64,000 nt of DNA from Candidatus Woesearchaeota archaeon (GTDB lineage: Archaea > Nanobdellota > Nanobdellia > Woesearchaeales > JACPIF01): contig JACPIF010000001.1 of NCBI GenBank assembly GCA_016188215.1, positions 5,923-69,922 of the forward strand, written 5' to 3'. A program made the position numbers and the translations under genes. Every line of letters starts with the position of its first letter. Positions within the stretch are counted from its first letter, which is position 1. Below, piece by piece: positions 23,585 through 41,565 of the stretch. The notes under the pieces are model-generated. The model worked only from the letters and a program-made list of their open reading frames with translations. It made no database searches and was not told the origin of the DNA.

Positions 23585-24412
23585 TTATTTGACGACCTCC
23601 GGCTTCATCGTGAATAGCTGCTCTTTTTCCATGACATCTAAAGCATGCTCGGTGAATAACGTTAATCTGCCAATGTGGCCGCCCGGTGCCAATAATTCTG
23701 AATTAAGGTGCCTGACCTCAACAACATCAATGCCGGGAACATTCCGCGCGGATTTGAGGAGGTTGCAATCTGCGCCGACAACAAGCAATGGACCAGTTCT
23801 CCTTCGGTATTTCCTGCCTCTCATCTTTCCTTTTCCAGCCCGCACTTTTGCATAATCTGCATGCTGCAATTCCTGTGCCAAGCCTAACGATGCAAGAGCA
23901 GCCTCAATTTCTTTTGTCTTGCTGATAGATTCAAAACTATTATCCAGTATGAATGGGTACAATTCAGGGATGACATGATTTCTTTGCTTCACAATATCCT
24001 TGAGGATAGTTGCTGACAATGCGCTTCTTAGCGCTTTTCTTCTCTCTTGTATGTTGATCTTTTCCCACCATATCTTTTGCGCTTTAGGAGGATGCGCACG
24101 CCTGCCGCCGCGCATGCCGGGAGCAAATGCGCCGACCCATGACATTCTGGTTCCACGCCTTGACATTATCTTCCTGGGGACCCTTGAGATGCCTAATCCG
24201 TAAGCTCCACGGTAATCCCTGCGACGCCTGCTAAGCTTGGCAGAGGCACGCTTGCCGGCTCCAGGCGACGCGCCATATGGCTGCCGGGTGTGGCTTTGAA
24301 TTGCAAGCACTGCACGCTTCACTAAATCAGGCCTTATAGGCTCGCTGAATTGTGCAGGAAGGTCGCGCTTCTTGGTTTCTTGTTTTGTTGCGGTGATAAT
24401 TGCGAGTTTCAT
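23585..24412 (-). CDS. rpl4: Ribosomal protein uL4
   Basis: 275 aa with an L4 core. Confidence 0.85.
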   Translation of the reverse strand: MKLAIITATKQETKKRDLPAQFSEPIRPDLVKRAVLAIQSHTRQPYGASPGAGKRASAKLSRRRRDYRGAYGLGISRVPRKIMSRRGTRMSWVGAFAPGMRGGRRAHPPKAQKIWWEKINIQERRKALRSALSATILKDIVKQRNHVIPELYPFILDNSFESISKTKEIEAALASLGLAQELQHADYAKVRAGKGKMRGRKYRRRTGPLLVVGADCNLLKSARNVPGIDVVEVRHLNSELLAPGGHIGRLTLFTEHALDVMEKEQLFTMKPEVVK

Positions 24413-24428
24413 GTTTTGTTTGCATTGC

Positions 24429-25382
24429 TTATTGCTTGCTCTCCAAGGATATGTAGTTGATTGGGCTTGCGTCCCTGAACTTTGGATTAGGGCGGATGGG
24501 CATGTTCAGCCTGATTAATCGCTTCTGCGGGCCTGCAATACCGCCCTTGATCATTACGTATGGGTTTTTTAGAGCTCCAAAATGGAGCCAACCGCCTTTC
24601 ATGGCTAATTCATCGTGCTTTCCTATCTTGAGGATCTGCTTGTTGTACTCAGTCCTGGTATGGTAGCCCATCTTGCCTGCGTGAGCAACCCGATACATGG
24701 TCTGCCCCTGCCCCTGCCAGCCGCCTAATGAGCCTGGGTTGCGGATTGATTTTTCTGACTTGTGCTGCCTCCTTGCAATGCCAAACCTTTTCATAGGGCC
24801 CTGGAAACCTTTGCCTGCGGTGACTGCGTGGATATCAACCTGGGCGCCGTCCTTGAAAACTTCTGTTATCAGAAGCTCTTTGCCTAGCTTCTCCTGGGCG
24901 AATTTCAGCTTGTCTTCCTTCTTTCCGCCGATGCCAAGCTCAAAGATTTCCGGCTTCTTTTTGCCGATGCCTGTTAAATGAGGCTGCGTATGCGCCAATA
25001 ACCTGATATCGTCATAGCTTTCAGGAATGGTTGCTTTCTTGTTTTTTGGAAGCTTGAGAGTTTTTGACAAATGCTTATCGAGGTTATCTGAGAAAATCTG
25101 AGAAAGAGAAACTGTGTTTTTATAGAAGCGCAAACCAAAAATCCTGAGCGGCGGGCACTCAATGATGGACACTGGAATTGAGATCTGCTGGTTTTTGGTC
25201 ATTGAATGCTGGCGGTTGTCAGTTGCTATAACATGAGTCATGCCAACCTTGTAGCCGGCGAAGCCTAATGGCTTTACATCCTTGACAGGAGCCCAAGTGC
25301 GGACTCTAGCTGTCTCGTTCCTTGCCCTTACCCTGGGCCAAAACTGCATGCTTCCATGTCGCGGCCATCTTATATTCGGCAT
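24429..25382 (-). CDS. rpl3: Ribosomal protein uL3
   Basis: 317 aa. N-terminus MPNIRWPRHGSMQFWPRVRA… First gene of the operon. Confidence 0.9.
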   Translation of the reverse strand: MPNIRWPRHGSMQFWPRVRARNETARVRTWAPVKDVKPLGFAGYKVGMTHVIATDNRQHSMTKNQQISIPVSIIECPPLRIFGLRFYKNTVSLSQIFSDNLDKHLSKTLKLPKNKKATIPESYDDIRLLAHTQPHLTGIGKKKPEIFELGIGGKKEDKLKFAQEKLGKELLITEVFKDGAQVDIHAVTAGKGFQGPMKRFGIARRQHKSEKSIRNPGSLGGWQGQGQTMYRVAHAGKMGYHTRTEYNKQILKIGKHDELAMKGGWLHFGALKNPYVMIKGGIAGPQKRLIRLNMPIRPNPKFRDASPINYISLESKQ

Positions 25383-25435
25383 TGATTCCTCTCTCTACAT
25401 CTTTGTGAATGAACGTGATGTTGCCATCACCCAAA

Positions 25436-25452
25436 AGCCTTTTTATACAGAA
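25436..25452 (-). promoter_or_regulatory. Candidate TATA box (minus-strand GTATAAAAAGG) and 5-prime UTR hairpin for the L3 operon
   Basis: AT-rich TATA-like element about 60 nt upstream of the L3 ATG. A perfect GTGATG/CATCAC palindrome at 25415-25430 lies between it and an AGAGGA Shine-Dalgarno. Confidence 0.3.
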
Positions 25453-25548
25453 ATCCCTGTAAGAACACTTGACGCGTACTGATCCAAGATTTCCTTATCA
25501 GGCTTGTCTCTTGCTATGGGGCATACCTTTGTAAAACCCCAATACAGA

Positions 25549-25566
25549 GGAAATGCGCACATTTCC
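25549..25566. repeat. GGAAATGC-NN-GCATTTCC hairpin module (third copy, standalone)
   Basis: ggaaatgcgcacatttcc. The same 8-bp stem occurs in copies C (45706) and D (49724). Confidence 0.5.
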
Positions 25567-25705
25567 TAGTCTTGAAAATCTTTGATTTTCAATACAGCCT
25601 TATTACGGGCTATAACTTGGTTTTGGAATGGCAGGGGATTTATAAAGGTTGCGGTGGGTTGTCCAATGAAAAAGCCTGTATTCACGTTTAAACTGTGATT
25701 TACCG

Positions 25706-25739
25706 CACTGGTCACTGGACAGGTGCAGACGTGAGCTAT
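25706..25739 (+). repeat. 34-nt motif CACTGGTCACTGGACAGRTG…CGTGAGNTAT, copy 1
   Basis: cactggtcactggacaggtgcagacgtgagctat, about 200 nt upstream of the Panacea cassette. Confidence 0.55.
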
Positions 25740-25941
25740 TTAAGTTCATTCCTGCTTTTTCCCCATTACAGAGGATAAATTTTAATACTAGTATTTTAAT
25801 ATTAAAATACTATGACGAAGTTACAGCATACAGGTAAACAATTTTACTTGAATATTCCCAAAGAGCATATCAGAAAATTAAACTGGAAAAAAGGAGACGA
25901 AATTTACATCACTAAAGATCCTATTAAGGACGTATTGTATT

Positions 25942-26514
25942 TTGAAAAAATGCCAGGAAGGAAAAAAAATGGAAGATGAAATTTCAATTGCCGAGAAATA
26001 TTTAATCCTTTTATTAGGAGTAGAAGATAAACCTATACCTAGTGAATTATATCTCCAGAAAGAAATTTTCGTTTTATCTCAATTTAGGCCAAAAATTCAA
26101 TCTATTTTTAACTTTCAGAAACACTATAAAGGTCCATATTCTCAACTAATAAGCGAAATAGTAGATGCACCGATTTACCATCCAGGCGCATTTGAAAAGA
26201 TTAATGAAAAAATAGTTATTACTAAGAATGGTAAAAATCAATATAGAGAGATTCTGGAAGAATATAGTAAAAACAACGAATTCAATACTTTAATCTCAAG
26301 TTTAATCTTTATTAGAAGACTTTATGAAAAATTAGATCAAGAACAATTACTTTTCTTGATATATACTAGTTATCCAAATTATATAGAATTTTCTAATATT
26401 TCTGATAAATTGCTAAAGGATAATCAAGTTAGATTGAGAATTAGTAGAGAGCTATTCCAAAAAGGCATTATTACTGAAGAAAGGTTTTTAGAATTAAAAG
26501 ATGATCAAAAATGA
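25942..26514 (+). CDS. Panacea/SocA-like (DUF4065) domain protein, putative antitoxin-like component
   Basis: ISIAEKYLILLL … LYLQKEIFVLSQ … FQKHYKGPYSQLI matches the Panacea hallmarks (LqKllY and GPv spacing). About 28-30% GC, far below the flanks. 4-nt overlap with the next ORF. Confidence 0.5.
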   Translation: MKKCQEGKKMEDEISIAEKYLILLLGVEDKPIPSELYLQKEIFVLSQFRPKIQSIFNFQKHYKGPYSQLISEIVDAPIYHPGAFEKINEKIVITKNGKNQYREILEEYSKNNEFNTLISSLIFIRRLYEKLDQEQLLFLIYTSYPNYIEFSNISDKLLKDNQVRLRISRELFQKGIITEERFLELKDDQK

Positions 26515-27050
26515 AAGACTTAGTTGCCGACTCAAGTTTTTATCTATGTTTCTTGGAAGATATTTGCAGCCCTTCTGATTTGGTTGCCATCATTGATAAT
26601 TTTAGGGCCCATTTAACTCCTTTAATTCATAAAGAAATTAAGAGATCAATCAATTTCTCATCAATAGATCAGCATGCTAATATTAATATTTTCTCAACAC
26701 CAAGTTTCAATATAGGTGAATTAGTTAAACCCTTCTTTTCAAAGAAGGAAATATCAAAGGGAGAACACGAAATTGTTGTGGCCGCATATTTTATTTATAA
26801 CACTAATAGAGATATTATAATAATTATTGATGAGAAAGGACCCAGGCAATTTATAATCAATCATTTGCCGGAATTAATACCTTTCCTTACTGGGACCGTT
26901 GGTATGGTTGGATCATGTTATTATACCTTTGCCATAATGGATAAACAGAAAACTTTAAATTTATTGGACCAAATAGGGTCTTCTAGATTTAGAGTAACTC
27001 AAAAAATATTAAATGAAATAAAAGAGAAGGTTGTGAACCACCGTGACTAA
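26511..27050 (+). CDS. Hypothetical protein, possible PIN-like nuclease (candidate toxin partner)
   Basis: The N-terminal LVADSSFYLCFLED and later GEHE / IIIDEKG / AIMDK acidic positions have PIN-like spacing. AT-rich. 8-nt overlap with the next ORF. Confidence 0.3.
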   Translation: MKDLVADSSFYLCFLEDICSPSDLVAIIDNFRAHLTPLIHKEIKRSINFSSIDQHANINIFSTPSFNIGELVKPFFSKKEISKGEHEIVVAAYFIYNTNRDIIIIIDEKGPRQFIINHLPELIPFLTGTVGMVGSCYYTFAIMDKQKTLNLLDQIGSSRFRVTQKILNEIKEKVVNHRD

Positions 27051-28170
27051 AATCCAAATTAAAGAAGTTATTGAAGACAAAACATCCGATTTCAATATTA
27101 AACGATATAAACTTTCAGGATTAACTTTGGATGAGCCGATAAAGACTTTTGATATTTCTTTAACTACAAATGGTCTGTTTAACGGTATTAAAATTAAGAA
27201 TAAGGTTCTTGAAAAACGAAAATCAATAAGACATTTTGAAACAATTAAGAAAGTTATAGAAGAAGATGATGATAAAATTATTAATCAATTCTTTGGAAAA
27301 GCACAATGGGCAGCAGGATATCCCTCCTTGATTAATGTAACTTTTGATTTTAATCCTTATAACTTTGTTAATAAAATGGAATCAATTGCTTCGTTTTTTG
27401 ATTATTATTATACTTATTCCAAAGATTTACTATTTGTACCAAATATTCGCTACAAGAAGTCAAATAACATTATAATAGATCTCGCAAATTATAAGAAATT
27501 TGTTGATGAAGTCTATAATCTATTAAATAAAAAAAATTCAAAACCAATTTTTGTACCTATATCACTAAGATTTCCTATAAAATATTATGAAGATTTAATA
27601 AAACATTATAAGAAAAAAGACTATCTTTATTTCTGGTTTGATTTTGAAGGGAAGCCCATAAATGAAGCAATAGCTGGAAGAATAAGGAGTATTAATTCAC
27701 TTATAAGAGAGCAAGGGCTGTTTAAACAATCTATAACCTATTTTACTAATATTAAGCGAGAAATTTTATCTAACATCAAAGACTTGGATAGTCCAGCATC
27801 CGATATCCTAGCAACTGTAATTGGAGCAAATATTACAGGAGTTAATAGGGAACCATTAAGATTTTTTGAATCAGGTGTTGAAGTTCCAGATCCAAATGAG
27901 ATTTGGAAACATAAGGCTAGAAATTTTGATAAAGATTCTTATTACTATGTCAAGAAAAAAGGGCCTGTGGAAAAAAAGAATGAAAATTTTACAAATAATA
28001 GTATTGTATTGAATGAAGAGCTTAGTAACCAAAGCGAGTATTTTTCAAAGAAATTAGAAATTAGAAATTATCTTTTAAAGAAAAGGATGTTAAATGAGTA
28101 CCAAAATGGTAATTTCTTAAGAAGGATTACAAATTCTGGTAGACAGGCTGGATTGAGTAGCTTCTTCTAA
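27043..28170 (+). CDS. Hypothetical 375-aa protein (third gene of the AT-rich cassette)
   Basis: No recognisable motif. Very low GC and Lys/Asn/Ile-rich. Its stop abuts the stop of the convergent rhomboid gene with zero spacing. Confidence 0.45.
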   Translation: MTKIQIKEVIEDKTSDFNIKRYKLSGLTLDEPIKTFDISLTTNGLFNGIKIKNKVLEKRKSIRHFETIKKVIEEDDDKIINQFFGKAQWAAGYPSLINVTFDFNPYNFVNKMESIASFFDYYYTYSKDLLFVPNIRYKKSNNIIIDLANYKKFVDEVYNLLNKKNSKPIFVPISLRFPIKYYEDLIKHYKKKDYLYFWFDFEGKPINEAIAGRIRSINSLIREQGLFKQSITYFTNIKREILSNIKDLDSPASDILATVIGANITGVNREPLRFFESGVEVPDPNEIWKHKARNFDKDSYYYVKKKGPVEKKNENFTNNSIVLNEELSNQSEYFSKKLEIRNYLLKKRMLNEYQNGNFLRRITNSGRQAGLSSFF

Positions 28171-28809
28171 TTATCTCCTAACAACCTCCATCCTAACCAA
28201 AACCCACATCACCACATACCCGAATACAAAGCCGCCGACATGGGCCCAGAATGCGATGCCTGCTCCTGTGCTGTCGAATAAGGAGAAGCTGCCCAATATG
28301 AGCTGCAAGATGAACCAGAAGCCTATCATGTAAACTGCTGAAATTTGGTGGAATCCAAACCTGCCTGCTACATGGATTTTGACATGGGGAAACAGCGCCA
28401 AATATGCTCCCAGGATTCCAGAGATGGCTCCTGATGCTCCAATTGTAGGGATATCGCTGCCTATATTAGTAAGATAATGCAATAAAGTTGCGGCAATGCC
28501 TGACAATATATAGAATACAATGAAGTAGAGCCTGCCGAGCCTGTCCTCAACATTGTCTCCAAATGTCCACATATACCACATGTTGCCGAAGATATGCTCA
28601 ATGCCTCCATGGAGGAACATTGAGGTGAATACTGTCAGCAGGGCAGGATGCAGCGGAGTAAAGCCAAATGTGCTTATAACCTGCTCAAAGTCAGTCAAGC
28701 TGTAGAGAAATACAAGCACGTTGACAGCTATGAGCGTGACGGTGACAAAGGGAAACTTTTCCCTGGGATTCTCATCCTTGTAGGGGAAGAATTGCGCTTT
28801 TTTGTCCAT
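28171..28809 (-). CDS. Rhomboid family intramembrane serine protease
   Basis: GASGAISGILGAYL (GxSG) and AHVGGFVFG (catalytic His), with 6 TM helices. Confidence 0.8.
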   Translation of the reverse strand: MDKKAQFFPYKDENPREKFPFVTVTLIAVNVLVFLYSLTDFEQVISTFGFTPLHPALLTVFTSMFLHGGIEHIFGNMWYMWTFGDNVEDRLGRLYFIVFYILSGIAATLLHYLTNIGSDIPTIGASGAISGILGAYLALFPHVKIHVAGRFGFHQISAVYMIGFWFILQLILGSFSLFDSTGAGIAFWAHVGGFVFGYVVMWVLVRMEVVRR

Positions 28810-28821
28810 TTTTGTTAGTTT

Positions 28822-28952
28822 TTACTTATACTAATTTGGACGGCTTCGCCGCCATGCGCTTCGCGCACTGCAATATGTCCCCCGATTTGCTGTAAAATAC
28901 GATTCGGGGGACTCCTCGCACCCCGGAGCGAACCTTTAGGTGAGCGACTACT
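28822..28952. repeat. GC-rich modular hairpin repeat, copy B, between priSL and the rhomboid gene
   Basis: Shares tttactt, CTTCGCGCACTG, a GTCCCCCG…CGGGGGAC 8-bp stem with a TTGCTGTAAAA loop, and TCGCACCCCGGAGC with copies C and D. Confidence 0.6.
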
Positions 28953-28955
28953 TTG

Positions 28956-30278
28956 CTAGTTATTAGTATTGTCTACCTTCTCTTTCTTTACTCTTTTCTT
29001 TGTCGGTATAGCAGTCAACTTAACTTTCTTTAAGGTATACTGGGCAGGATTACGTATCTTCTGGCAGAAATTGTCAGGCTTGCACACGCCAATATCAATC
29101 ATGTATGCCTTATTGTCGCAGTTGGGAGGCGGCATCTTCTTTCGCTGCAGTTTATGATACTTCAATTGGCCGAGGATATAGTTCTCCCTTAACGGCTCTG
29201 CATTCTTCTCGTTCCACGCCCTGACAATATTTTCCATCTCTTCATAGCTGTAGCCGACAGATGAAAGGAAGTTAAGCAAAACAAATAATGCGCGCTTCTT
29301 GCCGTCACTTAACCCATCCAAAATAAGCTTGATGCAAGGCGGGAAATATTCTGCTGAGATTGCCTCTGAAGGGATCTCAAACTGCTTCTCTGTCTTCTCA
29401 GGCTGCTTTGCGCTCTGCTCAAATGAGGTGTCAAATGCATCCAGAAGCAACCTTCTGGCTTCCCCCCTTACAGCATTCCTGTCAATGAAGCTGCCTTTCA
29501 CTATAACATTCTCAGGAGCAGCCATTGATTTCTGGAACTGCAATACCCGCATAGGATCAACAGGTATGGAGACAAGCCATGATTTTTCGTTCAAAGTGTA
29601 GGGCATCCTGTACAAATGCCGGGATGAGATAAGGACAGTGTCTATGTCAAGCAAAGAAAATGGGTTAAGCTGGTTATTGATGACCAGCTCCTTGTAGCCC
29701 TTTCCCGTGAGCTTCTGTATATCTTCAAAGGAGTATGCGTTGAGAATTGCCTGCATTAATTCATCTTTTATCTTTTCCTTTAGCCTTGCAGCAATCTGCC
29801 TAGGGCCTTCAGGGAACAGGTCTTTGGTCAAATTTTTGCCAACCCTGTCAGGAAAGCTTTCAAAAGGAATGCCGATATGGAAACCGTTGCCGCCTGAGAA
29901 CTTTAAGGAGACACTCCTGATGCCTTCCAGCTTTAATCTTTTGCAGATAATGAAAGCGGCTATCTTGGAGAATTCAACGTGCTTGGTGTCAATGTCCAGG
30001 AGCAAATCCCAGCCTATGCGTAATGCGTCCAGCTCTTTTCTTTTTAGGTTTGGGCTTAAAGCTAATGGATTGCTCCATAATTCTTCAGAAGCATGAAAAC
30101 TGGTGGCGCCTTCCTTGGCAAGCTCAAACACATCCCTTGGATACTGCAGGATATCCGGCCTTTTTCCGAAACCAGACTCGCCGAACTTCACAGCAACTTC
30201 TCTATTGGCTGCGTTCTGGAAAATAGCTTCCTGGACCTCTTTCCTAGAGTAATACTGCAGTATGAGCCTGGCATCCAT
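28956..30278 (-). CDS. priSL: Fused DNA primase: PriS catalytic domain plus PriL C-terminal Fe-S domain
   Basis: N-terminal PriS-like core (LLDIDTKH, SFHxS). The C-terminal FPPCIKLIL…PPNCDNK…GVCKPDNFC resembles the PriL-CTD 4Fe-4S cluster ligands. Confidence 0.6.
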   Translation of the reverse strand: MDARLILQYYSRKEVQEAIFQNAANREVAVKFGESGFGKRPDILQYPRDVFELAKEGATSFHASEELWSNPLALSPNLKRKELDALRIGWDLLLDIDTKHVEFSKIAAFIICKRLKLEGIRSVSLKFSGGNGFHIGIPFESFPDRVGKNLTKDLFPEGPRQIAARLKEKIKDELMQAILNAYSFEDIQKLTGKGYKELVINNQLNPFSLLDIDTVLISSRHLYRMPYTLNEKSWLVSIPVDPMRVLQFQKSMAAPENVIVKGSFIDRNAVRGEARRLLLDAFDTSFEQSAKQPEKTEKQFEIPSEAISAEYFPPCIKLILDGLSDGKKRALFVLLNFLSSVGYSYEEMENIVRAWNEKNAEPLRENYILGQLKYHKLQRKKMPPPNCDNKAYMIDIGVCKPDNFCQKIRNPAQYTLKKVKLTAIPTKKRVKKEKVDNTNN

Positions 30279-30370
30279 ATGGCTGTGGAATTGGTTTGGG
30301 TATTAAAAGGTTCTACTCTTAACGTGCGCTAAGATTTATATAGTCTGGAACATATACTATATGATAATGA

Positions 30371-33064
30371 TTGAGAGGGCAGAGTATGAAGATTATTTTA
30401 CCTATCATAATTATTTTTGTCTTAACAGTACTTAGTGCAAGCTATGTCTTTAGTGTTTCTTCACCTTACATAAAAGGATTTGTTTATGATAATTCCCTTC
30501 CTGACGAACCAAGATACAAGTATGTTTGCTTCAATACAAATGATAAAACTTATAGCATGAATATCACTCATGATTCTATGAGTTTTCAATGCTCCATAGT
30601 TAATGTTTCTGACACCCTAATTAGAGTTTTATGTGACAGCAGACATGATGGCAATGGGGATGGTAAATGCCAGAGCGGTGAATCCTGCATTGGCTATAGT
30701 TTCTACTCTGACAGGTATAATGTTGTAGATACAGATGGCGCATTTTCTTTTGATCCACCAGCTAGCTGGACTAGTATTCTTGATGAGAATGGCTATATGC
30801 ATTATAGCTACCTAATTGACATATGGGTATTTCGCAACACTGGACTAGACGAGTTAGTTGTAACACAACAGAGTGGCAGTGTATGTCCTGCTCCTAGAAT
30901 TGTAAATTACAATATCTATAATACCACAAATGAGAGTGGTCAAAATGTTGTAACCATTGGAATTAATACAGATCTTGATGGCTCATGTAAATTGTCGAAC
31001 CAATCCGGTACAGCATTTGAGAATATGATTTCTTTTAATGTGACTGGAGCAAATAGACATAACTATAGTTTTGTTCCTGAAGAGAATCGCAATTATACTT
31101 TCTACGCCAAGTGTAATAATTCAATAGGTAATATAAATAGCGAAGAGTCAAAAATTACATTTCTATTTGAATCAAGCAAGCCAGTTTTCTCATTTAATGA
31201 ATCTAAAATAAATATCTCTACTAACCTTACTATTGGGCTTTTTGCTCCGTTTTCTGACTATGGTTTTGGGTTTGCTGTAAATACAAGCTGTGAAATCTGT
31301 ATAGCTTCTGATAGAATTTGTGACACTGAATGGACGACTCAAGATGTAATAACAAATTACTCAAATGATTATTTAAGCGGTAATTGCTCTTATTCCTGGA
31401 ACAATTCAAATAACACAGATGCGCATTATAATGTAAGTTTCAGAATAAATGATATTTTAGGAAATAAAGGCATTGCTTCTAAACAAATTACTCTGGACAG
31501 GTATCCTCCTGAATTTAGGTTATACGACCCTTGGGACAATAAAGTGTTCACAGTAAATAATTCACAGATTGGCACAAATTTAACTACAGACGTGACTTTC
31601 TACTATGATGTACATGATTTAACTTCTATAGCAAATTGCTCATTAAAAATTAATGGGAAGGTAAATGCAACAAATACAACTGCTGGAGGAGGCTTCCACA
31701 AGTTTAGAGTAGATTTTCCAACAAATTTTGAAGGAGCAAAGAGTTTTAACTGGAGCATAAATTGTGCCGATGTTTTCGGATCTGAACTTATAGGTCAAAC
31801 AAGGAAATTTACTTTTATAGTGCTAGGAAATTTCTCAGGGGAAACTACTGATTTGAGTGCCGTGAATTTGTCTTATATACCTAATTTAACCTTTGAAGAA
31901 TCAAACTTAGGAAAGATCAAATTTATGGATATCATTAATTTAAGTAATGCATCTTTAAATCTCAATGATTATATAAAAATTTCCACATATAGAATAGAAA
32001 TAAACAGTGATGCCCTGCCTGCCCTCAACAAACCAGCTACATTATATATGTATAATGTTACCTACAGCAATCCCCGTATTATACGAGATGGAGAAGTGTG
32101 CCCCTCTGCTATCTGCGCCATTGTAAATGTCTCAAATGGGACTGTCATCTTTAATGTCACCCAATTTAGCACATATACCCTAGAAGAGACACCAGCTTCT
32201 TCTGATCCTTCTGACCCATCCACTCCAAGCGATGAAGGCGATTCAGGAGGCGGAAGTGGAGGAGATTCTAGCAGTGGAGGGTCTTCTGGTGGCTCAGGAG
32301 GAGGTTCCTCTGGCAGTGGTGGCGGCGGGGGAGGCGGTGGTGGAGGGGGCGGGAGCTCAAGCGGAAGCACTTCACCAGGAATGAAGGCCGAGCGGTTTTA
32401 TGACATTGTAAAACCAGATACGCCTATTGTTTTTACTGTTAGAAATGATGAACTTGCTGTGACTAAAATCACTATTAATCCAGCAATTCAGAGAGAAAAT
32501 GTAAATATTATGGTAGAGAAGATAGTGAATGAAACGAAAGTAACTCTACAGCTTCCAAACACGCTACAATACCTTAATTTAAGTGTTACAAATCTTGAAG
32601 ATACTTCTATTCAGGCCGCTTCATTTGAGTTTAAAATAGGCAAAACTTGGTTAGTTGATAGAAATTTTGAAAGTACAGACGTTGCGATGAAAAGATTCAA
32701 AGATGGGGTATGGGGCAATCTACCGACTTCTATAGTTAATGAATCCCAATATGATTACTCTTACATAGCATCCACTCCAGGATTCTCAATTTTCGCTATA
32801 ACTGCTGAAAAGCAAAAAGAGAAGGTAAGTCAAGAACCAACTCAAATTATGAAAGAAGAAAATATAGCCTTTCAATCCGTTGAACCAGTTGCCGAGGATG
32901 TCAATAATACGAATGTCAAAGACGAAAACCTTATTACTGGTTCAGCTGTAACAATTCCTGCAGAACAAGCCCATTTAAGATATACTTGGTTATTAATCCC
33001 TGCTATAGCAGTTTCACTAGGTTTACTTTATCTTTATAGGAAATATACAAAAAAGAAAAAATAA
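30371..33064 (+). CDS. Large secreted surface (S-layer-like) glycoprotein with a poly-Gly/Ser linker and C-terminal TM anchor
   Basis: Signal peptide MKIILPIIIIFVLTVLSASYVFS. More than 50 N-x-S/T sequons. A G/S run of about 60 aa at 32230-32390. C-terminal TM LLIPAIAVSLGLLYLY plus RKYTKKKK. Confidence 0.6.
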   Translation: MRGQSMKIILPIIIIFVLTVLSASYVFSVSSPYIKGFVYDNSLPDEPRYKYVCFNTNDKTYSMNITHDSMSFQCSIVNVSDTLIRVLCDSRHDGNGDGKCQSGESCIGYSFYSDRYNVVDTDGAFSFDPPASWTSILDENGYMHYSYLIDIWVFRNTGLDELVVTQQSGSVCPAPRIVNYNIYNTTNESGQNVVTIGINTDLDGSCKLSNQSGTAFENMISFNVTGANRHNYSFVPEENRNYTFYAKCNNSIGNINSEESKITFLFESSKPVFSFNESKINISTNLTIGLFAPFSDYGFGFAVNTSCEICIASDRICDTEWTTQDVITNYSNDYLSGNCSYSWNNSNNTDAHYNVSFRINDILGNKGIASKQITLDRYPPEFRLYDPWDNKVFTVNNSQIGTNLTTDVTFYYDVHDLTSIANCSLKINGKVNATNTTAGGGFHKFRVDFPTNFEGAKSFNWSINCADVFGSELIGQTRKFTFIVLGNFSGETTDLSAVNLSYIPNLTFEESNLGKIKFMDIINLSNASLNLNDYIKISTYRIEINSDALPALNKPATLYMYNVTYSNPRIIRDGEVCPSAICAIVNVSNGTVIFNVTQFSTYTLEETPASSDPSDPSTPSDEGDSGGGSGGDSSSGGSSGGSGGGSSGSGGGGGGGGGGGGSSSGSTSPGMKAERFYDIVKPDTPIVFTVRNDELAVTKITINPAIQRENVNIMVEKIVNETKVTLQLPNTLQYLNLSVTNLEDTSIQAASFEFKIGKTWLVDRNFESTDVAMKRFKDGVWGNLPTSIVNESQYDYSYIASTPGFSIFAITAEKQKEKVSQEPTQIMKEENIAFQSVEPVAEDVNNTNVKDENLITGSAVTIPAEQAHLRYTWLLIPAIAVSLGLLYLYRKYTKKKK

Positions 33065-33217
33065 ATCCGAACCAGACAAAGAGGTGTTGTGGTGTGTTGG
33101 TTGAGATTTTCCAGTCCGGATTATAAGCTATGGTGTTTGTATAAGATATTTGTAGCAAGCTTTTTAAAATAGCTTATGTAACCTATATCCAGACTTGGAA
33201 TCCATACATATGTAAAA

Positions 33218-33886
33218 ATGGCAATAACACTACAGAACCCGCCGTTATTCTATACTATAGACACTGCACTGCAGCTCGTATCCATGCTTATAGCGCTTTT
33301 AATCGTTGGATTCGGCTATAAAGCCTATAGGTTCACCAAGGATAAGCGATACTATTACTACTCAGTCGCCTTTGCCCTCATCGCAGCTGCGTTCTTTGTC
33401 AAGGCACTTTCCAATGTCATCATCTACTATATCGTGCCTTCCCCCGCAGCCAATTTCCTGCCGGTATTCAACTGGGGCATCTTTGCATACAGAATCCTCA
33501 TGATGCTTGCCTTCACAGGCATTATGCTCATGACCTTAAAGATAACTGACAGGAGGGTTGTATTATTGCTTTTGGTGTTTGCACTGTTCTCAGCGATCGC
33601 CTCAGAAGACCATAATACAGCTTTTTACATACTTTATATCATCATCCTGGGAGCAACATCTACGCAGCTCTACCTCAACTACAAGCTCAAGAAATCAAGG
33701 CTTGGGCTGGCAACCTTTGGCATCTTTGCCATGCTTACCGTGGCGCAGGCACTGTTCCTTGCGCTGATCCTGGACTTTTACTTTAAGATAGGCCTGGGAG
33801 CATTGCTGTACTACGCAGGGCAGGCATTCCAGATAACCAGCTTCCTGCTCCTGTTTTATGTCATGATACGCATCTCCAGACGATAA
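33218..33886 (+). CDS. Hypothetical 6-TM membrane protein
   Basis: Hydrophobic periodicity only. Confidence 0.4.
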   Translation: MAITLQNPPLFYTIDTALQLVSMLIALLIVGFGYKAYRFTKDKRYYYYSVAFALIAAAFFVKALSNVIIYYIVPSPAANFLPVFNWGIFAYRILMMLAFTGIMLMTLKITDRRVVLLLLVFALFSAIASEDHNTAFYILYIIILGATSTQLYLNYKLKKSRLGLATFGIFAMLTVAQALFLALILDFYFKIGLGALLYYAGQAFQITSFLLLFYVMIRISRR

Positions 33887-33889
33887 AAG

Positions 33890-34162
33890 ATGGCTGAACG
33901 AAGAGATAGGATAACCATCATCTATGACATCCTCTCAGCTATTGCTGCGAAGAGCGGCAGGATCAAGCCAACACATTTACTGTATAAGTCTAATCTTTCC
34001 CATATCAGCATGAAGAAGTACATTGAGGAGCTTAAGGGGAAGAAGCTGATAGATGAAGAGCATGTAAAGGAGCATCTGTTCTATAAATTGACTGATGAAG
34101 GCATAAAGTTCCTGAATGATTACAAGAAGATAAGAGAGTTTACCGAGAGCTTTGGATTGTGA
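33890..34162 (+). CDS. Small winged-helix DNA-binding protein
   Basis: 90 aa with a wHTH-like sequence (ITIIYDILSAIAAKSGRIKPTHLLYKSNLSHISMKKYIEELKGKKLI). Confidence 0.45.
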   Translation: MAERRDRITIIYDILSAIAAKSGRIKPTHLLYKSNLSHISMKKYIEELKGKKLIDEEHVKEHLFYKLTDEGIKFLNDYKKIREFTESFGL

Positions 34163-34219
34163 TCACCTTAATTTTCTTTTGAAGCTAAATTTAAATAGTG
34201 CCTTAATTTCAAGCAACTT

Positions 34220-34912
34220 ATGAACGAGCTTCCCGCATCAGATATTTATGAGCAAGAGTTCAAGTATATGCCTTGGGGAACACTGATAGAGAGGGTTCTA
34301 GACCTGATATCCACAACAGTTCCACGCAACGGAAGCGCCCTTGACCTCATGTGCGGGCCAGGGTACTTGCTCGGAAAAATCAGGGAAAGGAGAAGGGACA
34401 TGTTTCTTGAGGGCATAGATATAAGCAAAGAATTCATCGGGCATGCAATAGGCAGATACCCTACAATCAAATTCGGCGTTGCAGATGTAATGGGCTGGAA
34501 TTCCACAAGAGGATATGACCTGGTTACATGCACTGGAGGCATCCACCACCTCCCCTATGAGCAGCAGGCAAGGTTCTTGGAGAAGGTAAAAGGCTTGCTA
34601 AAGCCAAACGGATTAGGCATTCTTGCAGATCCATATATAGATCATTATGAAAGTGAGGAAGAAAGGAAATTGGGTGCTGCGCGGCTTGGATATGAGTATC
34701 TTGCGGCCACAATGAGAAATGGGGCACCACCGGCAATAGTAAAAGCGGCCATAGATATCTTAGATAATGATGTAAGGGGAAAAGAATTTAAAACTTCAAT
34801 CAGAAGGATGAAACCAATAATGGGCAGTGTCTTCTCAAGCCTTGAAGTGCACAAGACATGGCCTGAAACAGATTCTGATTATGGGGAATATTACTTAGTT
34901 GTTAGAAAATGA
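34220..34912 (+). CDS. Class I SAM-dependent methyltransferase
   Basis: Motif I LDLMCGPGYLL and motif II VTCTGGIHHL. Confidence 0.65.
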   Translation: MNELPASDIYEQEFKYMPWGTLIERVLDLISTTVPRNGSALDLMCGPGYLLGKIRERRRDMFLEGIDISKEFIGHAIGRYPTIKFGVADVMGWNSTRGYDLVTCTGGIHHLPYEQQARFLEKVKGLLKPNGLGILADPYIDHYESEEERKLGAARLGYEYLAATMRNGAPPAIVKAAIDILDNDVRGKEFKTSIRRMKPIMGSVFSSLEVHKTWPETDSDYGEYYLVVRK

Positions 34913-34922
34913 ATGACCAATA

Positions 34923-35324
34923 TTGGCAACATTTTTAAATATTGAAGTTCCAGTCTGCTTTCAGATGCACATCGCAAGAGAACTTGAACAGTGGCTACAA
35001 GGATTGCGTGCATCAGATGAATTCATAATCGTTGAAGGCAAGAAGGACAAGGAAGCTTTAGAGCGGCAAGGCATTACAAATATCCTGATTCTCAACAAGA
35101 AGCCGCTTTATCAATTGGTGGAAGAGCTTTCATCTGAGCGCAAGAACGTCGTGATATTGACTGATCTGGACAGGAAAGGCCGGGAGCTGTACGGGAAACT
35201 GAACAATGGGCTTAAGAAGCACGGGGTCAAGGTAAATGACAAGCCACGCAACTTTTTGTTCAAAAGGACTAAATTAAGACAGATAGAAGGGCTGACGACT
35301 TATTTGCAGACTATACTGCAGTAA
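34923..35324 (+). CDS. Small Toprim-domain protein
   Basis: IIVEGKKDKEAL … VVILTDLDRKGREL (Toprim E and DxD). Confidence 0.55.
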   Translation: MATFLNIEVPVCFQMHIARELEQWLQGLRASDEFIIVEGKKDKEALERQGITNILILNKKPLYQLVEELSSERKNVVILTDLDRKGRELYGKLNNGLKKHGVKVNDKPRNFLFKRTKLRQIEGLTTYLQTILQ

Positions 35325-35366
35325 TAATACATAAGATTTTTAAACAAAAATTTCTTTCATGCAGAA

Positions 35367-35918: not shown

Positions 35919-35963
35919 TAATAAAACATTAAACTTTTAAACACAAAATATTTACCAAGAGCT

Positions 35964-36806: not shown

Positions 36807-36808
36807 AC

Positions 36809-36842
36809 CACTGGTCACTGGACAGATGTGCGCGTGAGATAT
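36809..36842 (+). repeat. 34-nt motif CACTGGTCACTGGACAGRTG…CGTGAGNTAT, copy 2
   Basis: cactggtcactggacagatgtgcgcgtgagatat, starting 3 nt after the htpX stop and about 90-140 nt upstream of the LAGLIDADG-like gene. Confidence 0.55.
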
Positions 36843-36931
36843 ATAAAGGCTAACCTCTCCCATTGATTAACTCATTCAATATAAATCCCACTAGGATGTG
36901 TTCAGCTTTCAAATTATGATTTCCAATTCTC

Positions 36932-38095
36932 GTGAAATCATTTACAAAGCTTCACATAATTAAAAAGACGGTGATTTACATGAATTCGCTTAATCAAATC
37001 AAAATTAGAGAGTTCCACATTAATCAATTTCCCACTGATAGAATATTCATTTCTTTAAACGAGAGTTTTCATAGAGAACTCTTTTCCATGATAAATATTA
37101 AAAATTATGAAAATTTGAATAAATCAACTTTTAAGCAATGGAAAAATAGAAGGCATTTTATTCCACTCTGGGTTATCATTAAGCTGCAGGAAACTTCACC
37201 ATATTCTATAGAAGACTTTGAAAGAAATATTATCGCGTATAAGGGTCCTAGTACCTCTGCTGTGATCGATAACCCATGTTTGCCTTTACTGGAGGATGAA
37301 AGACTACTGCGTGCTGTGGCCCACTTATTAGGAGACGGATTTGTAGGAGGCGGCTTTGGCAGTAAGTTGCCTCAAGGGAAGCAACACTCAGAATTTAGAA
37401 ACTTTGCTCCGGAACTTTTGGACAGTTTCCATAGAGATTTATCGGTATTTGGAAATGTTCCTGTAACTAAAAATTATCAGCACGGTTCTTTAGTAATACC
37501 CAATTCTATAGGGTATATCTTATGTCATCTTTATAGGATAAAGTTTGACACATTTAATTCACGAGTGCCAGAAGTATTTTTTAATCTTCCTAAAGAGTTG
37601 GTAGCACAATTCTTACGCGCCTTTGCAGATGATGAAGCACACGTTTTTGATAGTTCTATTGAGTATTATTCATGTAATAAGGATCTATTGCAAGATGTAC
37701 TATCTTTAATGAATTCACATTTTCCAGAGATTAAGACTTCTGGAATTAAAGCCAATATTAAAGCAGGAAGAAATACAAAGTATTCATTTTCAGTTTATAG
37801 CAAATCTCAAGAATTGTACCTGAATCATATAGGATTTGACCACAATCAAAAAACAAAAGATTTAACATTTAATCTAAGTCGCAATAAAAATAGAAAATAC
37901 AACAAAAATTCTCGCGATATAATTCTGGATTTATTAGCAAATAATACTTTATCTGCAAAGGAACTCTCTAGAATTACGAATATCACTCATGTACAAGTTT
38001 TGGCTTATCTTAAAGAACTTAAGGAACAAAGAAAGGTAAAAATTATTGAAAAAGTACATTGGGCTAATCGATGGACTTCTAAATTATCTCAATAA
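36932..38095 (+). CDS. Free-standing LAGLIDADG-like protein with C-terminal wHTH (possible homing-endonuclease relic)
   Basis: Two motifs about 100 aa apart: VAHLLGDGFVGG and FLRAFADDEAHV. C-terminal HTH LSAKELSRITNITHVQVLAYLKEL. Low GC. Confidence 0.4.
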   Translation: MKSFTKLHIIKKTVIYMNSLNQIKIREFHINQFPTDRIFISLNESFHRELFSMINIKNYENLNKSTFKQWKNRRHFIPLWVIIKLQETSPYSIEDFERNIIAYKGPSTSAVIDNPCLPLLEDERLLRAVAHLLGDGFVGGGFGSKLPQGKQHSEFRNFAPELLDSFHRDLSVFGNVPVTKNYQHGSLVIPNSIGYILCHLYRIKFDTFNSRVPEVFFNLPKELVAQFLRAFADDEAHVFDSSIEYYSCNKDLLQDVLSLMNSHFPEIKTSGIKANIKAGRNTKYSFSVYSKSQELYLNHIGFDHNQKTKDLTFNLSRNKNRKYNKNSRDIILDLLANNTLSAKELSRITNITHVQVLAYLKELKEQRKVKIIEKVHWANRWTSKLSQ

Positions 38096-38683: not shown

Positions 38684-38730
38684 AGGAATCCTAATAATAG
38701 TAGAAAGAATTTGTTATATAAGTCTTTCTC

Positions 38731-40962: not shown

Positions 40963-41565
40963 CTAGTAATCATGCCCTGGGCAGATGTGCCTTGGATTGT
41001 ACTTTGCAAGCTTCATCAAAGATTCAGGCATCTTCTCAGGCATTGATGTCGGAAGGTCTGTCCTGCCAAGCAGCTTTTTCCGGAAAATGGTATCCCCAGT
41101 AAAGAGGACGCTTTCCTTCTCGTACCAGAAACAAACACTGCCTGCGGTATGGCCTGGAGTGTCTATGATTTCAAGCTCTGAATCCGCTGGAAACGGATTG
41201 AGGTGAACGGCGAACTTCTCAGCGATGTCTGGATTAAGGGTAGCGGCATCCTTATTCTTATTGAATGCGTCTATCTCAACTGCTGACGCATGGAATTCTG
41301 CATTAGGAAAAAGATCAAAATTGCCGATATGGTCGTAGTGAAGATGGGTGAAGAACACCTTTTTAACTTGGGCAGGGTCAATTATTTTCCCTAAGAACTG
41401 CTCAACAACATTCCTTTCTGAGCGGTCGCCTGCATCAATCACCACGATTTCAGAATTTAATTTGATAATATAAATATTAGAGTTGGCCCTTAATTTGGTG
41501 ACTGAGGCACTAATATTCTGTAGTGGAGATATAGCCCTGATCATGGAGGTAGTACCCGATTGCAT
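40963..41565 (-). CDS. Metallo-beta-lactamase fold hydrolase
   Basis: THLHYDHIGN and a TPGHTAGS motif. Confidence 0.65.
   Translation of the reverse strand: MQSGTTSMIRAISPLQNISASVTKLRANSNIYIIKLNSEIVVIDAGDRSERNVVEQFLGKIIDPAQVKKVFFTHLHYDHIGNFDLFPNAEFHASAVEIDAFNKNKDAATLNPDIAEKFAVHLNPFPADSELEIIDTPGHTAGSVCFWYEKESVLFTGDTIFRKKLLGRTDLPTSMPEKMPESLMKLAKYNPRHICPGHDY

What the first reader, a model, noticed from the sequence alone, without database searches (positions are those of the whole stretch)
25706..25739. Identically oriented 34-nt motif upstream of two low-GC, mobile-looking genes
cactggtcactggacagRtg…cgtgagNtat occurs at 25706-25739 and 36809-36842 (28 of 34 identical). Copy 1 precedes the Panacea cassette. 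Copy 2 starts 3 nt after the htpX stop and precedes the low-GC LAGLIDADG-like gene. The motif contains an internal direct repeat CACTGG-T-CACTGG. It could be an attachment or insertion hotspot, a shared promoter or operator for acquired genes, or the terminal repeats of a rearrangement-prone segment.
Basis: seen in the sequence. Interest (0 to 1): 0.55.

Follow-up and report, generated by a model that had tools for sequence, protein, structure and literature searches.

The report
Shared promoter box in Woesearchaeota genomes
The two repeats are copies of a conserved promoter element of uncultivated Woesearchaeota archaea, most likely a docking site for an unidentified regulator, found in front of DNA-replication, DNA-repair and selfish-nuclease genes in many genomes.

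Summary
The two copies (25706-25743 and 36809-36846) match at 31 of 38 positions, and the first 17 nt are identical. No randomised window reached this score.

The window is from a Woesearchaeota (DPANN) archaeon. Each copy sits 10-11 nt upstream of an archaeal TATA box.

The same 20-mer, CACTGG-N-CACTGG-N-CAGNTG, occurs in at least 54 non-redundant loci from DPANN-type MAGs and metagenomes. It always has the same spacing to a TATA box, and a start codon usually follows about 30 nt later, as expected for leaderless mRNAs.

The core is one 9-nt unit, CACTGGACA. A single unit at the same distance from the TATA box is kept in orthologous promoters of the htpX-adjacent LAGLIDADG/wHTH gene across genomes only about 55-60% identical in protein. 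It also precedes Hef and primase genes. The window copies are a tandem-doubled form.

Downstream genes are mostly DNA-transaction genes: MCM, Hel308-like helicase, nucleases, recombinases, DinD/Bro-N, ORF6N, YhcG and toxin-antitoxin modules.

It is therefore a promoter-proximal regulatory box, probably a transcription-factor site. It is not an attachment site, terminal repeat or RNA. The binding protein is unknown. The box resembles the Orc1/Cdc6 ORB core.

"Acquired genes only" does not.

The parts
25706..25725 (+). Copy 1 of the box: two tandem units plus a third half-degenerate heptad, CACTGGT-CACTGGA-CAGGTG.
   Evidence: The same 20-mer occurs in 54 non-redundant loci elsewhere.
25726..25744 (+). 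GC-rich spacer and BRE region (cagacgtgagc) followed by the TATA-like box TATTTAAG (25737-25744).
   Evidence: One search shows the same spacer-plus-TATA layout in all true instances. One search gives 22-24 nt from the proximal unit to the TATA box. The promoter function is inferred.
25659..25668 (-). Auxiliary-like unit, TTGTCCAATG. Its reverse complement CATTGGACAA has one mismatch to CACTGGACA. It lies 38 nt upstream of copy 1, at the edge of the DNA that relatives lack.
   Evidence: exact auxiliary units lie 42-112 nt upstream in about a third of the loci. One search gives the boundary against the conserved rpl3 promoter. This unit is a weak match.
25639..25646 (-). TATA box (TTTATAAA) of the divergent rpl3 ribosomal-protein operon promoter, ACCGCAACCTTTATAAA. 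It is conserved in relatives and marks the end of the conserved DNA next to cassette 1.
   Evidence: window compared with L152 and L154.
25784..25809 (+). Two overlapping palindromes, AATACTAGTATT and TATTTTAATATTAAAATA, between the predicted transcription start and the first gene. They may be a second operator for the AbrB/MazE-like protein.
   Evidence: Read directly. The function is inferred.
25812..28170 (+). Low-GC four-gene cassette: a 55-aa AbrB/MazE-like protein, then proteins of 181 aa (ATG at 25969; the listed ORF starts at a TTG, 25942), 179 aa and 375 aa with no family assignment. The cassette is absent from relatives.
   Evidence: Absence between rhomboid and rpl3 in L152 and L154.
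36809..36828 (+). Copy 2 of the box: CACTGGT-CACTGGA-CAGATG.
   Evidence: Orthologous promoters carry a single CACTGGACA at the same place.
36829..36846 (+). GC-rich spacer and BRE region (tgcgcgtgag) followed by the TATA box ATATATAA (36839-36846).
36916..36941 (+). Inverted repeat ATGATTTC-N10-GAAATCAT in the leader of the LAGLIDADG/wHTH gene. It is kept, with changes on both arms, in L143 and L156.
   Evidence: The function is unknown.
36980..38095 (+). Gene for a 371-aa protein with an N-terminal domain, a double LAGLIDADG nuclease fold and a C-terminal winged helix. It forms a conserved pair with htpX in Woesearchaeota.
   Evidence: (invariant D119, G120 and D217-D218-E219).
40973..40981 (-). 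Degenerate unit CCCAGGGCA in the Hef promoter, 16 nt upstream of TATTTATA (40949-40956). The same position holds CCCTGGACA in L149 and a perfect CACTGGACA in L156 and L157.

Best explanation
The repeat is a promoter-proximal regulatory box of Woesearchaeota and related DPANN archaea.

Anatomy (shown). The core unit is (C)CACTGGACA. Its first base lies 22-25 nt upstream of the first base of a TATA box, which places it just upstream of the BRE. In the window both promoters carry a tandem-doubled form: two units offset by 7 nt, followed by CAGRTG and a GC-rich stretch.

Mechanism (inferred). I infer that a sequence-specific DNA-binding protein occupies the unit or units. It may bind cooperatively with auxiliary units 40-110 nt further upstream. 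From that position it would control recruitment of TBP and TFB, and so transcription of the downstream gene. A site upstream of the BRE favours activation over repression.

Regulon (shown as an association). The box defines a set of promoters dominated by DNA-transaction genes. These include replication and repair genes (MCM, Hef, PriL, a Hel308-like helicase, a radical-SAM/HhH repair protein, PD-(D/E)XK and RNase-H-like nucleases). They also include resident selfish or defence-like genes (LAGLIDADG nucleases, XerA-like recombinases, TnpB, DinD/Bro-N, ORF6N, RhuM, YhcG, and PIN/TumE/AbrB toxin-antitoxin modules).

What is shown and what is not. The conserved sequence, geometry, distribution and downstream gene content are shown. 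Protein binding, the sign of regulation and the inducing signal are inferred. The binding protein is unknown. The two leads are an Orc1/Cdc6-family protein, because the unit with its T-rich 5' flank resembles the ORB core TTTCCACTGGAA, and the LAGLIDADG/wHTH protein, whose own promoter carries the box in all six promoters examined.
For: 1. The pair is not a chance match.

2. A scan of one genome per species for CACTGGTCACTGGACAGNTG gave 17 hits. Sixteen are in Woesearchaeota-, Nanoarchaeota- or other archaeon-labelled MAGs, including two probably mis-binned contigs. All sixteen are followed 9-14 nt later by a TATA box. The one Erwinia hit has no TATA box.

Hits with the TATA layout carry T/A/C/G at position 7 and A/T at position 14. 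About 75 hits without a TATA box look like chance.

4. In 54 non-redundant promoters the proximal unit lies 22-24 nt from the TATA box, and the commonest TATA-to-start-codon distance is 29-31 nt, as in leaderless archaeal mRNAs. Positions that the search did not force are also biased: C at -1 and CGCG or CGGA at +21 to +24.

5. There is conservation that does not depend on how the loci were found. In L155, L156 and L157 the orthologous htpX-to-LAGLIDADG/wHTH intergenic region keeps only CACTGGACA and the TATA box, although neighbouring proteins are only 52-62% identical. L162 has the same architecture built from variant units, ACTAGACA and AGTAGACA, in four places within one promoter.

6. Single-unit promoters also precede Hef in L156 and L157 and PriL in L155. 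The Hef site is decayed in L149 (CCCTGGACA) and in the window (CCCAGGGCA).

7. Exact auxiliary units lie 42-112 nt upstream in about 18 of 54 promoters: 20 sites found against about 1.3 expected over both strands.

8. Downstream gene content was read.

9. On the candidate binding proteins: in L017 and L083 the box lies just downstream of an Orc1/Cdc6 gene, and in L068 it lies between TBP and MCM. The published archaeal ORB consensus is CTTCCAGTGGAAACGAAAGGGGT, with variants such as GTTCCACTGGAAAC (PMC4153887). The motif's flank often reads TTTCCACTGG. In Sulfolobus, Orc1-2 binds a promoter motif and drives the DNA-damage response (PMC6061795), which is a precedent.
Against: No transcription start site, expression data or binding data exist for any of these uncultivated organisms.

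The double form is almost all-or-none. In 391 kb of motif-bearing loci only one copy had 1-4 mismatches. That is unusual for a transcription-factor site and could point to recent spread of a mobile promoter module.

Identical upstream modules occur in front of unrelated genes, and the reverse also occurs.

The functional classification of the downstream genes was partly done by eye, and many are unannotated small ORFs.

The ORB resemblance covers 8-11 nt only. The G-rich ORB element is absent, and no Orc1/Cdc6 gene lies in the window.

The window genome has the LAGLIDADG/wHTH gene, yet its Hef site has decayed. This weakens that protein as the candidate regulator.
Confidence: 0.8

Rival explanations
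1. The box is the end of a mobile gene cassette or a site-specific recombination site (att- or integron-like). Accessory genes would be inserted or exchanged there, and the promoter would simply travel with them.
For: Both window copies sit at the 5' edge of DNA that the closest relative lacks. Pairs of loci share the upstream module but not the gene, or the gene but not the upstream DNA, with the break near the motif. XerA-like tyrosine recombinase genes lie directly downstream of the box in L016, L032 and probably L071. Some auxiliary units form inverted pairs about 60 nt upstream. Degenerate copies of the double form are nearly absent.
Against: The spacing to the TATA box and the start codon is fixed, which a recombination site does not need. 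Neither window segment has a second site or repeat at its far end. There are no arrays. No integrase lies near either window copy. The LAGLIDADG/wHTH gene and its box are in the same place in six genomes, and the gene has diverged about as much as its neighbours, so this copy was inherited vertically. Single units also precede core genes, Hef and PriL.
Confidence: 0.1
2. The units are true origin-recognition boxes. They would mark replication origins, chromosomal or of integrated elements, and would not be transcriptional control sites.
For: The unit with its flank resembles the ORB core. In L017 and L083 the box lies next to an Orc1/Cdc6 gene. L017 has five units within 5 kb, together with an integrase.
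Against: A single MAG carries up to four dispersed copies. Every copy is locked to a TATA box and a downstream gene. At the window copies there are no clustered inverted ORBs flanking an AT-rich unwinding element. The G-rich ORB element is absent. No Orc1/Cdc6 gene was found in the window, though only the larger non-ribosomal ORFs were scanned.
Confidence: 0.05
3. The repeat encodes, or lies within, a structured RNA such as an sRNA, a riboswitch-like leader or a terminator.
For: One of four folded strands (copy 1, + strand) folds somewhat better than shuffles, z = -2.3.
Against: The two copies do not share a predicted structure, and the other three folds are no better than shuffles. No Rfam family matches at E <= 0.1 anywhere in 25300-37100. 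The box lies upstream of the TATA box, so it is outside the predicted transcript.
Confidence: 0.02
4. The two window copies match by chance.
For: A single exact 17-mer repeat in 64 kb is not very rare. About 0.1-0.2 are expected, by my own estimate.
Against: The extended match beats all 60 randomisations. The same sequence recurs in dozens of unrelated contigs in the same promoter context.
Confidence: 0.01

Closest known systems
Upstream activating or operator sites of archaeal transcription factors bound just upstream of the BRE/TATA (for example Ptr2 sites in Methanocaldococcus and the TFB-RF1 site in Pyrococcus; named from my own knowledge)
   Same: A short specific sequence lies immediately upstream of the BRE/TATA at a fixed distance. 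It is shared by several unlinked promoters and is sometimes accompanied by further upstream sites.
   Different: The sequence, the lineage and the gene set differ. No binding protein is known here. The tandem 7-nt offset of the units is unusual.
Sulfolobales DNA-damage-response element (ANTTTC) bound by the Orc1/Cdc6 paralogue Orc1-2 (PMC6061795)
   Same: It is a promoter motif shared by genes of DNA repair and DNA transfer. It shows that an initiator-family protein can act as a global regulator, and the box here resembles the ORB core.
   Different: The sequence is unrelated. The Sulfolobus motif lies 23-55 bp upstream of the ATG, not upstream of the BRE. Binding by Orc1/Cdc6 is only a lead here.
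Archaeal origin recognition box (ORB or mini-ORB), consensus CTTCCAGTGGAAACGAAAGGGGT (PMC4153887, Table 2)
   Same: It shares CCACTGGA, and often TTTCCACTGG, with the unit and its 5' flank. Two loci have the box next to an Orc1/Cdc6 gene.
   Different: After the shared CCACTGGA the box continues with CA, where the ORB continues with AA(A/G). It has no G-rich element, is dispersed, is tied to TATA boxes, and is not arranged as inverted pairs around an unwinding element.
Heptad-repeat operators of ribbon-helix-helix repressors, such as the omega protein of plasmid pSM19035 (from my own knowledge)
   Same: Seven-bp units occur in tandem, and also in direct or inverted orientation at auxiliary sites. 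At least two units occur at the strongest sites.
   Different: That system is bacterial and the sequence differs. Here a single unit seems to be enough at orthologous promoters. No ribbon-helix-helix protein is linked to the box.
WhiA, a bacterial transcription factor built from a degenerate LAGLIDADG fold plus a helix-turn-helix domain
   Same: The gene downstream of copy 2 encodes a LAGLIDADG fold plus a winged helix. Its promoter always carries the box, so autoregulation is conceivable. WhiA appears among the fold matches.
   Different: The catalytic acidic residues are invariant here, whereas WhiA has lost them (from my own knowledge). The best fold matches are active intein homing endonucleases and I-DmoI.

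Membership tests
Archaeal promoter-proximal transcription-factor binding site (cis-regulatory box) | Fixed position relative to the BRE/TATA and the start of the gene | tested here: met
   The proximal unit lies 22-24 nt from the TATA box in 46 of 54 promoters. The commonest TATA-to-start-codon distance is 29-31 nt. Single-unit orthologues show 23-25 nt.
Archaeal promoter-proximal transcription-factor binding site (cis-regulatory box) | Conserved at orthologous promoters while the surrounding intergenic DNA diverges | tested here: met
   The htpX-to-LAGLIDADG/wHTH promoters of the window, L155, L156, L157 and L143 keep only the unit and the TATA box. L162 keeps the architecture with variant units.
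Archaeal promoter-proximal transcription-factor binding site (cis-regulatory box) | Present at several unlinked promoters of one genome (a regulon) | tested here: met
   There are two copies in the window. Four contigs of MAG JAGVIO01, three of DUFX01 and two of JAYVHA01 carry it. L155, L156 and L157 have two promoters each.
Archaeal promoter-proximal transcription-factor binding site (cis-regulatory box) | A protein binds it and changes transcription | not testable with these tools
   There are no cultures, no binding data and no expression data.
Origin recognition box (Orc1/Cdc6 site) | Match to the ORB consensus, including the G-rich element | tested here: inconclusive
   The box shares 8-11 nt of the dyad core. 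No GGGGT element follows it.
Origin recognition box (Orc1/Cdc6 site) | Clustered, often inverted, around an AT-rich region next to orc1/cdc6 | tested here: not met
   This is not the case at either window copy. No Orc1/Cdc6 gene was found in the window; only the larger non-ribosomal ORFs were scanned. Only L017 and L083 have the box beside an Orc1/Cdc6 gene.
Site-specific recombination site (att, attC or dif-like) | A partner site at the other end of the inserted DNA, or arrays of sites | tested here: not met
   There is no related sequence at 28170 or at 38700-38730. Apart from the window, which has two, each locus holds one double box, and degenerate copies are nearly absent.
Site-specific recombination site (att, attC or dif-like) | Adjacent recombinase | tested here: not met
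   None lies near the window copies. About 4 of 54 loci have a recombinase, and there it is the gene driven by the box.
Transposon or MITE terminal repeat | Terminal inverted repeats with target-site duplication bounding a discrete element | tested here: not met
   The two window copies are direct repeats 11 kb apart and flank conserved syntenic genes. No inverted partner bounds either low-GC segment.
Known RNA family (Rfam) | Covariance-model match | tested here: not met
   There is no match at E <= 0.1 in 25300-37100. There is no shared fold.
Sulfolobales DNA-damage-response element | ANTTTC hexamer between the TATA region and the start codon | tested here: not met
   The sequence and the position differ. 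The relation is an analogy only.

The most novel reading that the evidence does not exclude
The box is an ORB-derived promoter element. Through it, a DNA-replication initiator-family protein (Orc1/Cdc6), or alternatively a domesticated LAGLIDADG-winged-helix protein, would coordinate replication and repair genes together with resident selfish nucleases and toxin-antitoxin modules. That would be a DNA-damage or cell-cycle regulon, described from sequence alone, in uncultivated DPANN archaea.
Probability: 0.25. Interest if true: 0.7.

Novelty: new member of a known kind. Interest (0 to 1): 0.5.

Why it matters
As far as I know, gene regulation in DPANN archaea is almost unexplored, because these organisms are rarely cultured. 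Full-text searches for the sequence and for DPANN or Woesearchaeota promoter motifs found nothing relevant.

A sharply defined box with fixed promoter geometry has several uses:

- It gives a way to annotate promoters in these genomes.
- It defines a candidate regulon linking replication and repair genes with selfish nucleases and toxin-antitoxin modules.
- It provides a 26-bp probe for finding the regulator by DNA-affinity or DAP-seq experiments with recombinant proteins.
- It corrects the impression that the htpX-adjacent LAGLIDADG gene is a recent mobile insertion. The gene is a conserved, probably catalytically active nuclease with a conserved promoter.

Tried and rejected
1. A viral-contig scan for the 17-mer gave two hits. 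Both lie in unrelated contexts without a TATA box and are chance.

2. RNA explanations were rejected. The Rfam gathering scan of the whole window found one tRNA elsewhere. The E-value scan around both copies found nothing. Folding of both strands of both copies gave no shared structure.

3. A tRNA-fragment attachment site was rejected. ARAGORN found no tRNA in the window, and the only Rfam tRNA is at 44580.

4. I searched 391 kb of motif-bearing loci for degenerate double boxes. Only one was found, so I could not build a graded weight matrix for the double form.

5. I looked for a recurrent, divergently transcribed regulator gene upstream of the box. None exists, and most upstream genes run in the same direction and are unrelated to each other.

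6. tblastn with the LAGLIDADG/wHTH protein and with Orc1/Cdc6 against all fetched loci gave no general co-location with the box.

7. I tested for lower GC downstream of the box as a general rule. The effect is weak: mean -1.8 points, p = 0.06.

8. A recurrent 95-aa protein encoded downstream of the box (four loci) got no assignment from Pfam, NCBIfam or PDB sequence search.

9. PHROGs gave nothing useful for the window cassette proteins.

10. The promoter and terminator scanner was not used, because it models bacterial sigma-70 promoters.

Full report
**1. The observation**

The repeat finder extends the match to 38 nt at 82% identity, 25706-25743 against 36809-36846. The first 17 nt, CACTGGTCACTGGACAG, are identical. 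They occur nowhere else in the window, even when three mismatches are allowed. The ungapped score of the pair is 24. Sixty first-order randomisations of the window gave best scores of 16-21. The pair is therefore real.

**2. The organism and the local context**

The window is archaeal. It carries a ribosomal-protein operon (rpl3 and rpl4 at 23585-25382 on the minus strand), a primase large subunit, Hef, PCNA and other archaeal genes. NCBI names the HtpX and rhomboid proteins as coming from a Candidatus Woesearchaeota archaeon.

Each copy is followed, after a GC-rich 10-11 nt, by a sequence that fits an archaeal TATA box. These are TATTTAAG at 25737 and ATATATAA at 36839.

**3. The same element in other genomes**

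- The scan of one genome per species for CACTGGTCACTGGACAGNTG returned 17 hits. Sixteen lie in MAGs labelled Woesearchaeota, Nanoarchaeota or 'archaeon'. This count includes one 'Methanosarcinales' contig and one 'Buchananbacteria' contig, which are probably mis-binned.
- All sixteen are followed 9-14 nt later by a TATA box. The remaining hit, in Erwinia, has none and is about what chance predicts.
- Some MAGs carry the element on two to four different contigs.
About 45 have the spacer-plus-TATA layout. The rest have no TATA box and look like chance hits.
- In the true instances position 7 is T, A, C or G and position 14 is A or T. The element is therefore CACTGG-N-CACTGG-N-CAGNTG.
- Viral contigs gave only two chance hits.
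- The literature searches found nothing on this sequence or on promoter motifs in these lineages.

**4. Promoter geometry**

I analysed 54 non-redundant instances.

- The proximal unit starts 22 or 24 nt upstream of the best TATA octamer in 46 cases.
- The commonest distance from the TATA box to the first start codon is 29-31 nt. By established knowledge of archaeal promoters, this is what leaderless mRNAs starting about 25 nt downstream of the TATA box would give.
- Positions that the search pattern did not fix are also biased. Position -1 is C in 30 of 54 cases, and +21 to +24 read CGCG or CGGA. The conserved element is therefore about 26 bp long.
- The two window promoters differ in having longer leaders. 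The start codon lies about 75 nt from the TATA box at copy 1, and 93 nt (GTG) or 141 nt (ATG) at copy 2. Both leaders contain palindromes of their own.

**5. The core unit and evidence free of search bias**

All of the instances above were found because they match the pattern, so they cannot by themselves show conservation. Orthologous promoters give an independent test.

- The gene after copy 2 encodes a 371-aa protein. It has 49 homologues at about 30-65% identity, and all that carry a source name are named Woesearchaeota or Nanoarchaeota.
- The gene lies directly after htpX in six genomes: the window, L155, L156, L157, L162 and a JGI contig. In the window, L155, L156 and L157 it lies between htpX and Hef.
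- Its protein identity to the window (58-61%) is similar to that of the neighbouring HtpX (52-62%) and Hef (55-58%). This pattern indicates vertical inheritance.
- In L155, L156 and L157 the short intergenic region after htpX keeps only two things in common with the window: a single CACTGGACA and a TATA box 23-25 nt after its start.
- L143, a metagenome contig whose leader resembles the window's, has the doubled form plus an inverted auxiliary pair.
- L162 has the same layout built from variant units: AGTAGACA-ACTAGACA-AGTG, then cgggtagag, then TTTATATA. It also has two more variant units upstream. Variant units in several places within one promoter are what co-evolution of a protein and its sites would produce.
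- Single units at the same spacing also precede Hef in L156 and L157 and the primase large subunit in L155.
- The Hef site reads CCCTGGACA in L149 and CCCAGGGCA in the window, at the same position. This looks like an old site that is decaying.

The core is therefore CACTGGACA. The window copies are a tandem-doubled form with a 7-nt offset.

**6. Auxiliary units**

Exact extra units occur 42-112 nt upstream of the main box in about 18 of 54 promoters, in either orientation and sometimes as inverted pairs. Twenty were found where about 1.3 are expected over both strands. Copy 1 has a one-mismatch unit (TTGTCCAATG, 25659-25668) at the matching place.

**7. What lies downstream**

Clustering and Pfam scans gave the following downstream genes:

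- DinD/Bro-N proteins: 5
- LAGLIDADG nucleases: 4 with Pfam support, plus L013, read by eye from its LIGDG motif (no Pfam hit)
- ORF6N proteins: 3
- XerA-like tyrosine recombinases: 3-4
- TumE-like proteins: 3
- RNase-H-like exonucleases: 2
- One each of a radical-SAM/HhH repair-type protein, YhcG (DUF1016), a Dna2/Cas4-like PD-(D/E)XK nuclease, TnpB, a PIN protein, RhuM, MCM, a Hel308-type helicase fragment and DUF763
- A recurrent unassigned 95-aa protein: 4
- Several zinc-ribbon and other small ORFs

About 29 of 48 have a tool-supported link to DNA transactions, mobile DNA or toxin-antitoxin systems. By my reading, the corresponding figure for the upstream neighbours is about 6 of 42. This classification is partly by eye. 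The upstream neighbours themselves include Orc1/Cdc6 (L017, L083) and TBP (Pfam), and PCNA and an RPA-like protein (read by eye).

**8. Comparison of loci with and without the downstream genes**

- The closest relative with long contigs (L149 and L152, GCA_964602245.1; Hef 76% identical) has the same gene order from rpl3 to beyond Hef. It lacks both copies.
- In that relative the htpX and Hef stop codons are 17 nt apart, and rhomboid and rpl3 are 300 nt apart.
- L158 also has a 17-nt htpX-Hef spacer.
- The four-gene cassette after copy 1 (27-29% GC) is specific to the window lineage. It starts beside the conserved rpl3 promoter ACCGCAACCTTTATAAA. Cassette 1 is therefore plausibly acquired.
- Given the distribution in section 5, the LAGLIDADG/wHTH gene is more simply explained as ancestral and lost in L149 and L158.
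- Neither window segment has a related sequence at its far end.
- The 11 kb between the copies is syntenic in the relatives, so the copies are not terminal repeats of a rearranging segment.

**9. Shuffling of modules**

Some pairs of loci share the upstream module but not the gene (L023, L109 and L124; L018 and L046; L016 and L143). Others share the gene but not the upstream DNA (L045 and L074; the DinD group). Degenerate copies of the double form are nearly absent. Both facts leave room for some spread of the promoter module by recombination or transfer. This is the main rival explanation.

**10. The gene after copy 2**

- The alignment shows that D119 and G120 of the first LAGLIDADG motif, and D217-D218-E219 of the second, are invariant.
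- The AlphaFold2 model is confident, with mean pLDDT 91.8.
- Its best structural matches are intein homing endonucleases and I-DmoI. WhiA ranks lower.
- The protein is therefore probably an active nuclease with an added winged helix, kept as a gene pair with htpX. Whether it also regulates genes cannot be decided here.

**11. Who binds the box**

No tool used here can show this. There are two leads.

First, the unit with its T-rich 5' flank often reads TTTCCACTGG(A/T)CA. This resembles the ORB core in its published forms, GTTCCACTGGAAAC and CTTCCAGTGGAAAC (PMC4153887). The box lies beside an Orc1/Cdc6 gene in two loci. An Orc1/Cdc6 paralogue is a proven promoter-binding regulator of the DNA-damage response in Sulfolobus (PMC6061795).

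Second, the LAGLIDADG/wHTH protein has the box in its own promoter in all six promoters examined.

Both are inferences. I rate Orc1/Cdc6 at about 0.25-0.3 and the LAGLIDADG/wHTH protein lower.

**12. Verdict**

The finding is real. It is best read as a conserved promoter-proximal regulatory box of Woesearchaeota, present here in tandem-doubled form in front of one acquired cassette and one conserved nuclease gene. It is a new member of a familiar kind of element. Its interest is moderate, because it defines a candidate DNA-transaction regulon in a lineage where regulation is almost unknown.

Noticed in passing
window 44580-44682 (+): Rfam calls a tRNA spanning 103 nt (50 bits), which probably contains an intron. 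ARAGORN did not report it.
   Followed up: partly
window ~51371-51478 (-): The sequence looks like a tRNA with an insertion: acceptor stem GCGGGGA/TCCCCGC and T arm GCAGG-TTCGAAA-CCTGC. Neither Rfam nor ARAGORN calls it.
   Followed up: partly
window 49628-49669 and 51218-51259; also 45693-45726/49711-49744 and 20078-20103/51199-51224: A second family of intergenic repeats. The 42-nt pair scores 28, above every shuffle. It contains GC-rich hairpins and lies upstream of the PCNA gene and an RNase J-like gene on the minus strand. No Rfam match.
   Followed up: partly
window 36916-36941 (+); L143 and L156 leaders: An inverted repeat, ATGATTTC-N10-GAAATCAT, lies in the leader of the LAGLIDADG/wHTH gene. 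L143 and L156 keep it with changes on both arms (ATGATTTT...AAAATCAT). It could be a second operator or an RNA hairpin.
   Followed up: partly
window 25784-25809 (+): Two overlapping perfect palindromes, AATACTAGTATT and TATTTTAATATTAAAATA, lie just upstream of the AbrB/MazE-like gene. They may be its autoregulatory operator.
   Followed up: no
window 35964-38095; L155, L156, L157, L162; JGI 3300072015 contig: htpX and the LAGLIDADG/wHTH nuclease gene form a conserved adjacent pair in six Woesearchaeota genomes. Two other genomes have a 17-nt htpX-Hef spacer instead.
   Followed up: yes
L017 (JAGVIO010000110.1), whole 5 kb: Five box units lie within 5 kb that also holds YhcG, a zinc-ribbon protein, a XerA-like recombinase and Orc1/Cdc6. 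This could be an integrated element or an origin region.
   Followed up: partly
L134, about 7.6 kb into the locus: The box precedes an ORF that holds only the C-terminal part of a Hel308-type helicase (Helicase_C and archaeal domain 4). The upstream ORF is an unrelated cysteine-rich protein, so the helicase gene may be split or truncated.
   Followed up: no
L021, L034, L111, L015: A recurrent protein of about 95 aa (motif ...SATVWKN...YRTVSLQRSYKDKDGNWQ...) is driven by the box. No Pfam, NCBIfam or PDB sequence match was found. In L021 it follows an RPA-like gene.
   Followed up: partly
window 33890-34162 (+): A 90-aa winged-helix protein matches the Sso10a chromatin-protein family (NCBIfam, E = 1e-15). 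It is conserved at this position in relatives.
   Followed up: no
L023, L109, L124, L046, L018 upstream regions: A conserved module of about 110 nt lies between an auxiliary unit and the main box. It contains the hairpin TTCCGGAAnCTTCCGG followed by a T-run, and a second hairpin CCGAAAAT-ATTTTCGG.
   Followed up: no
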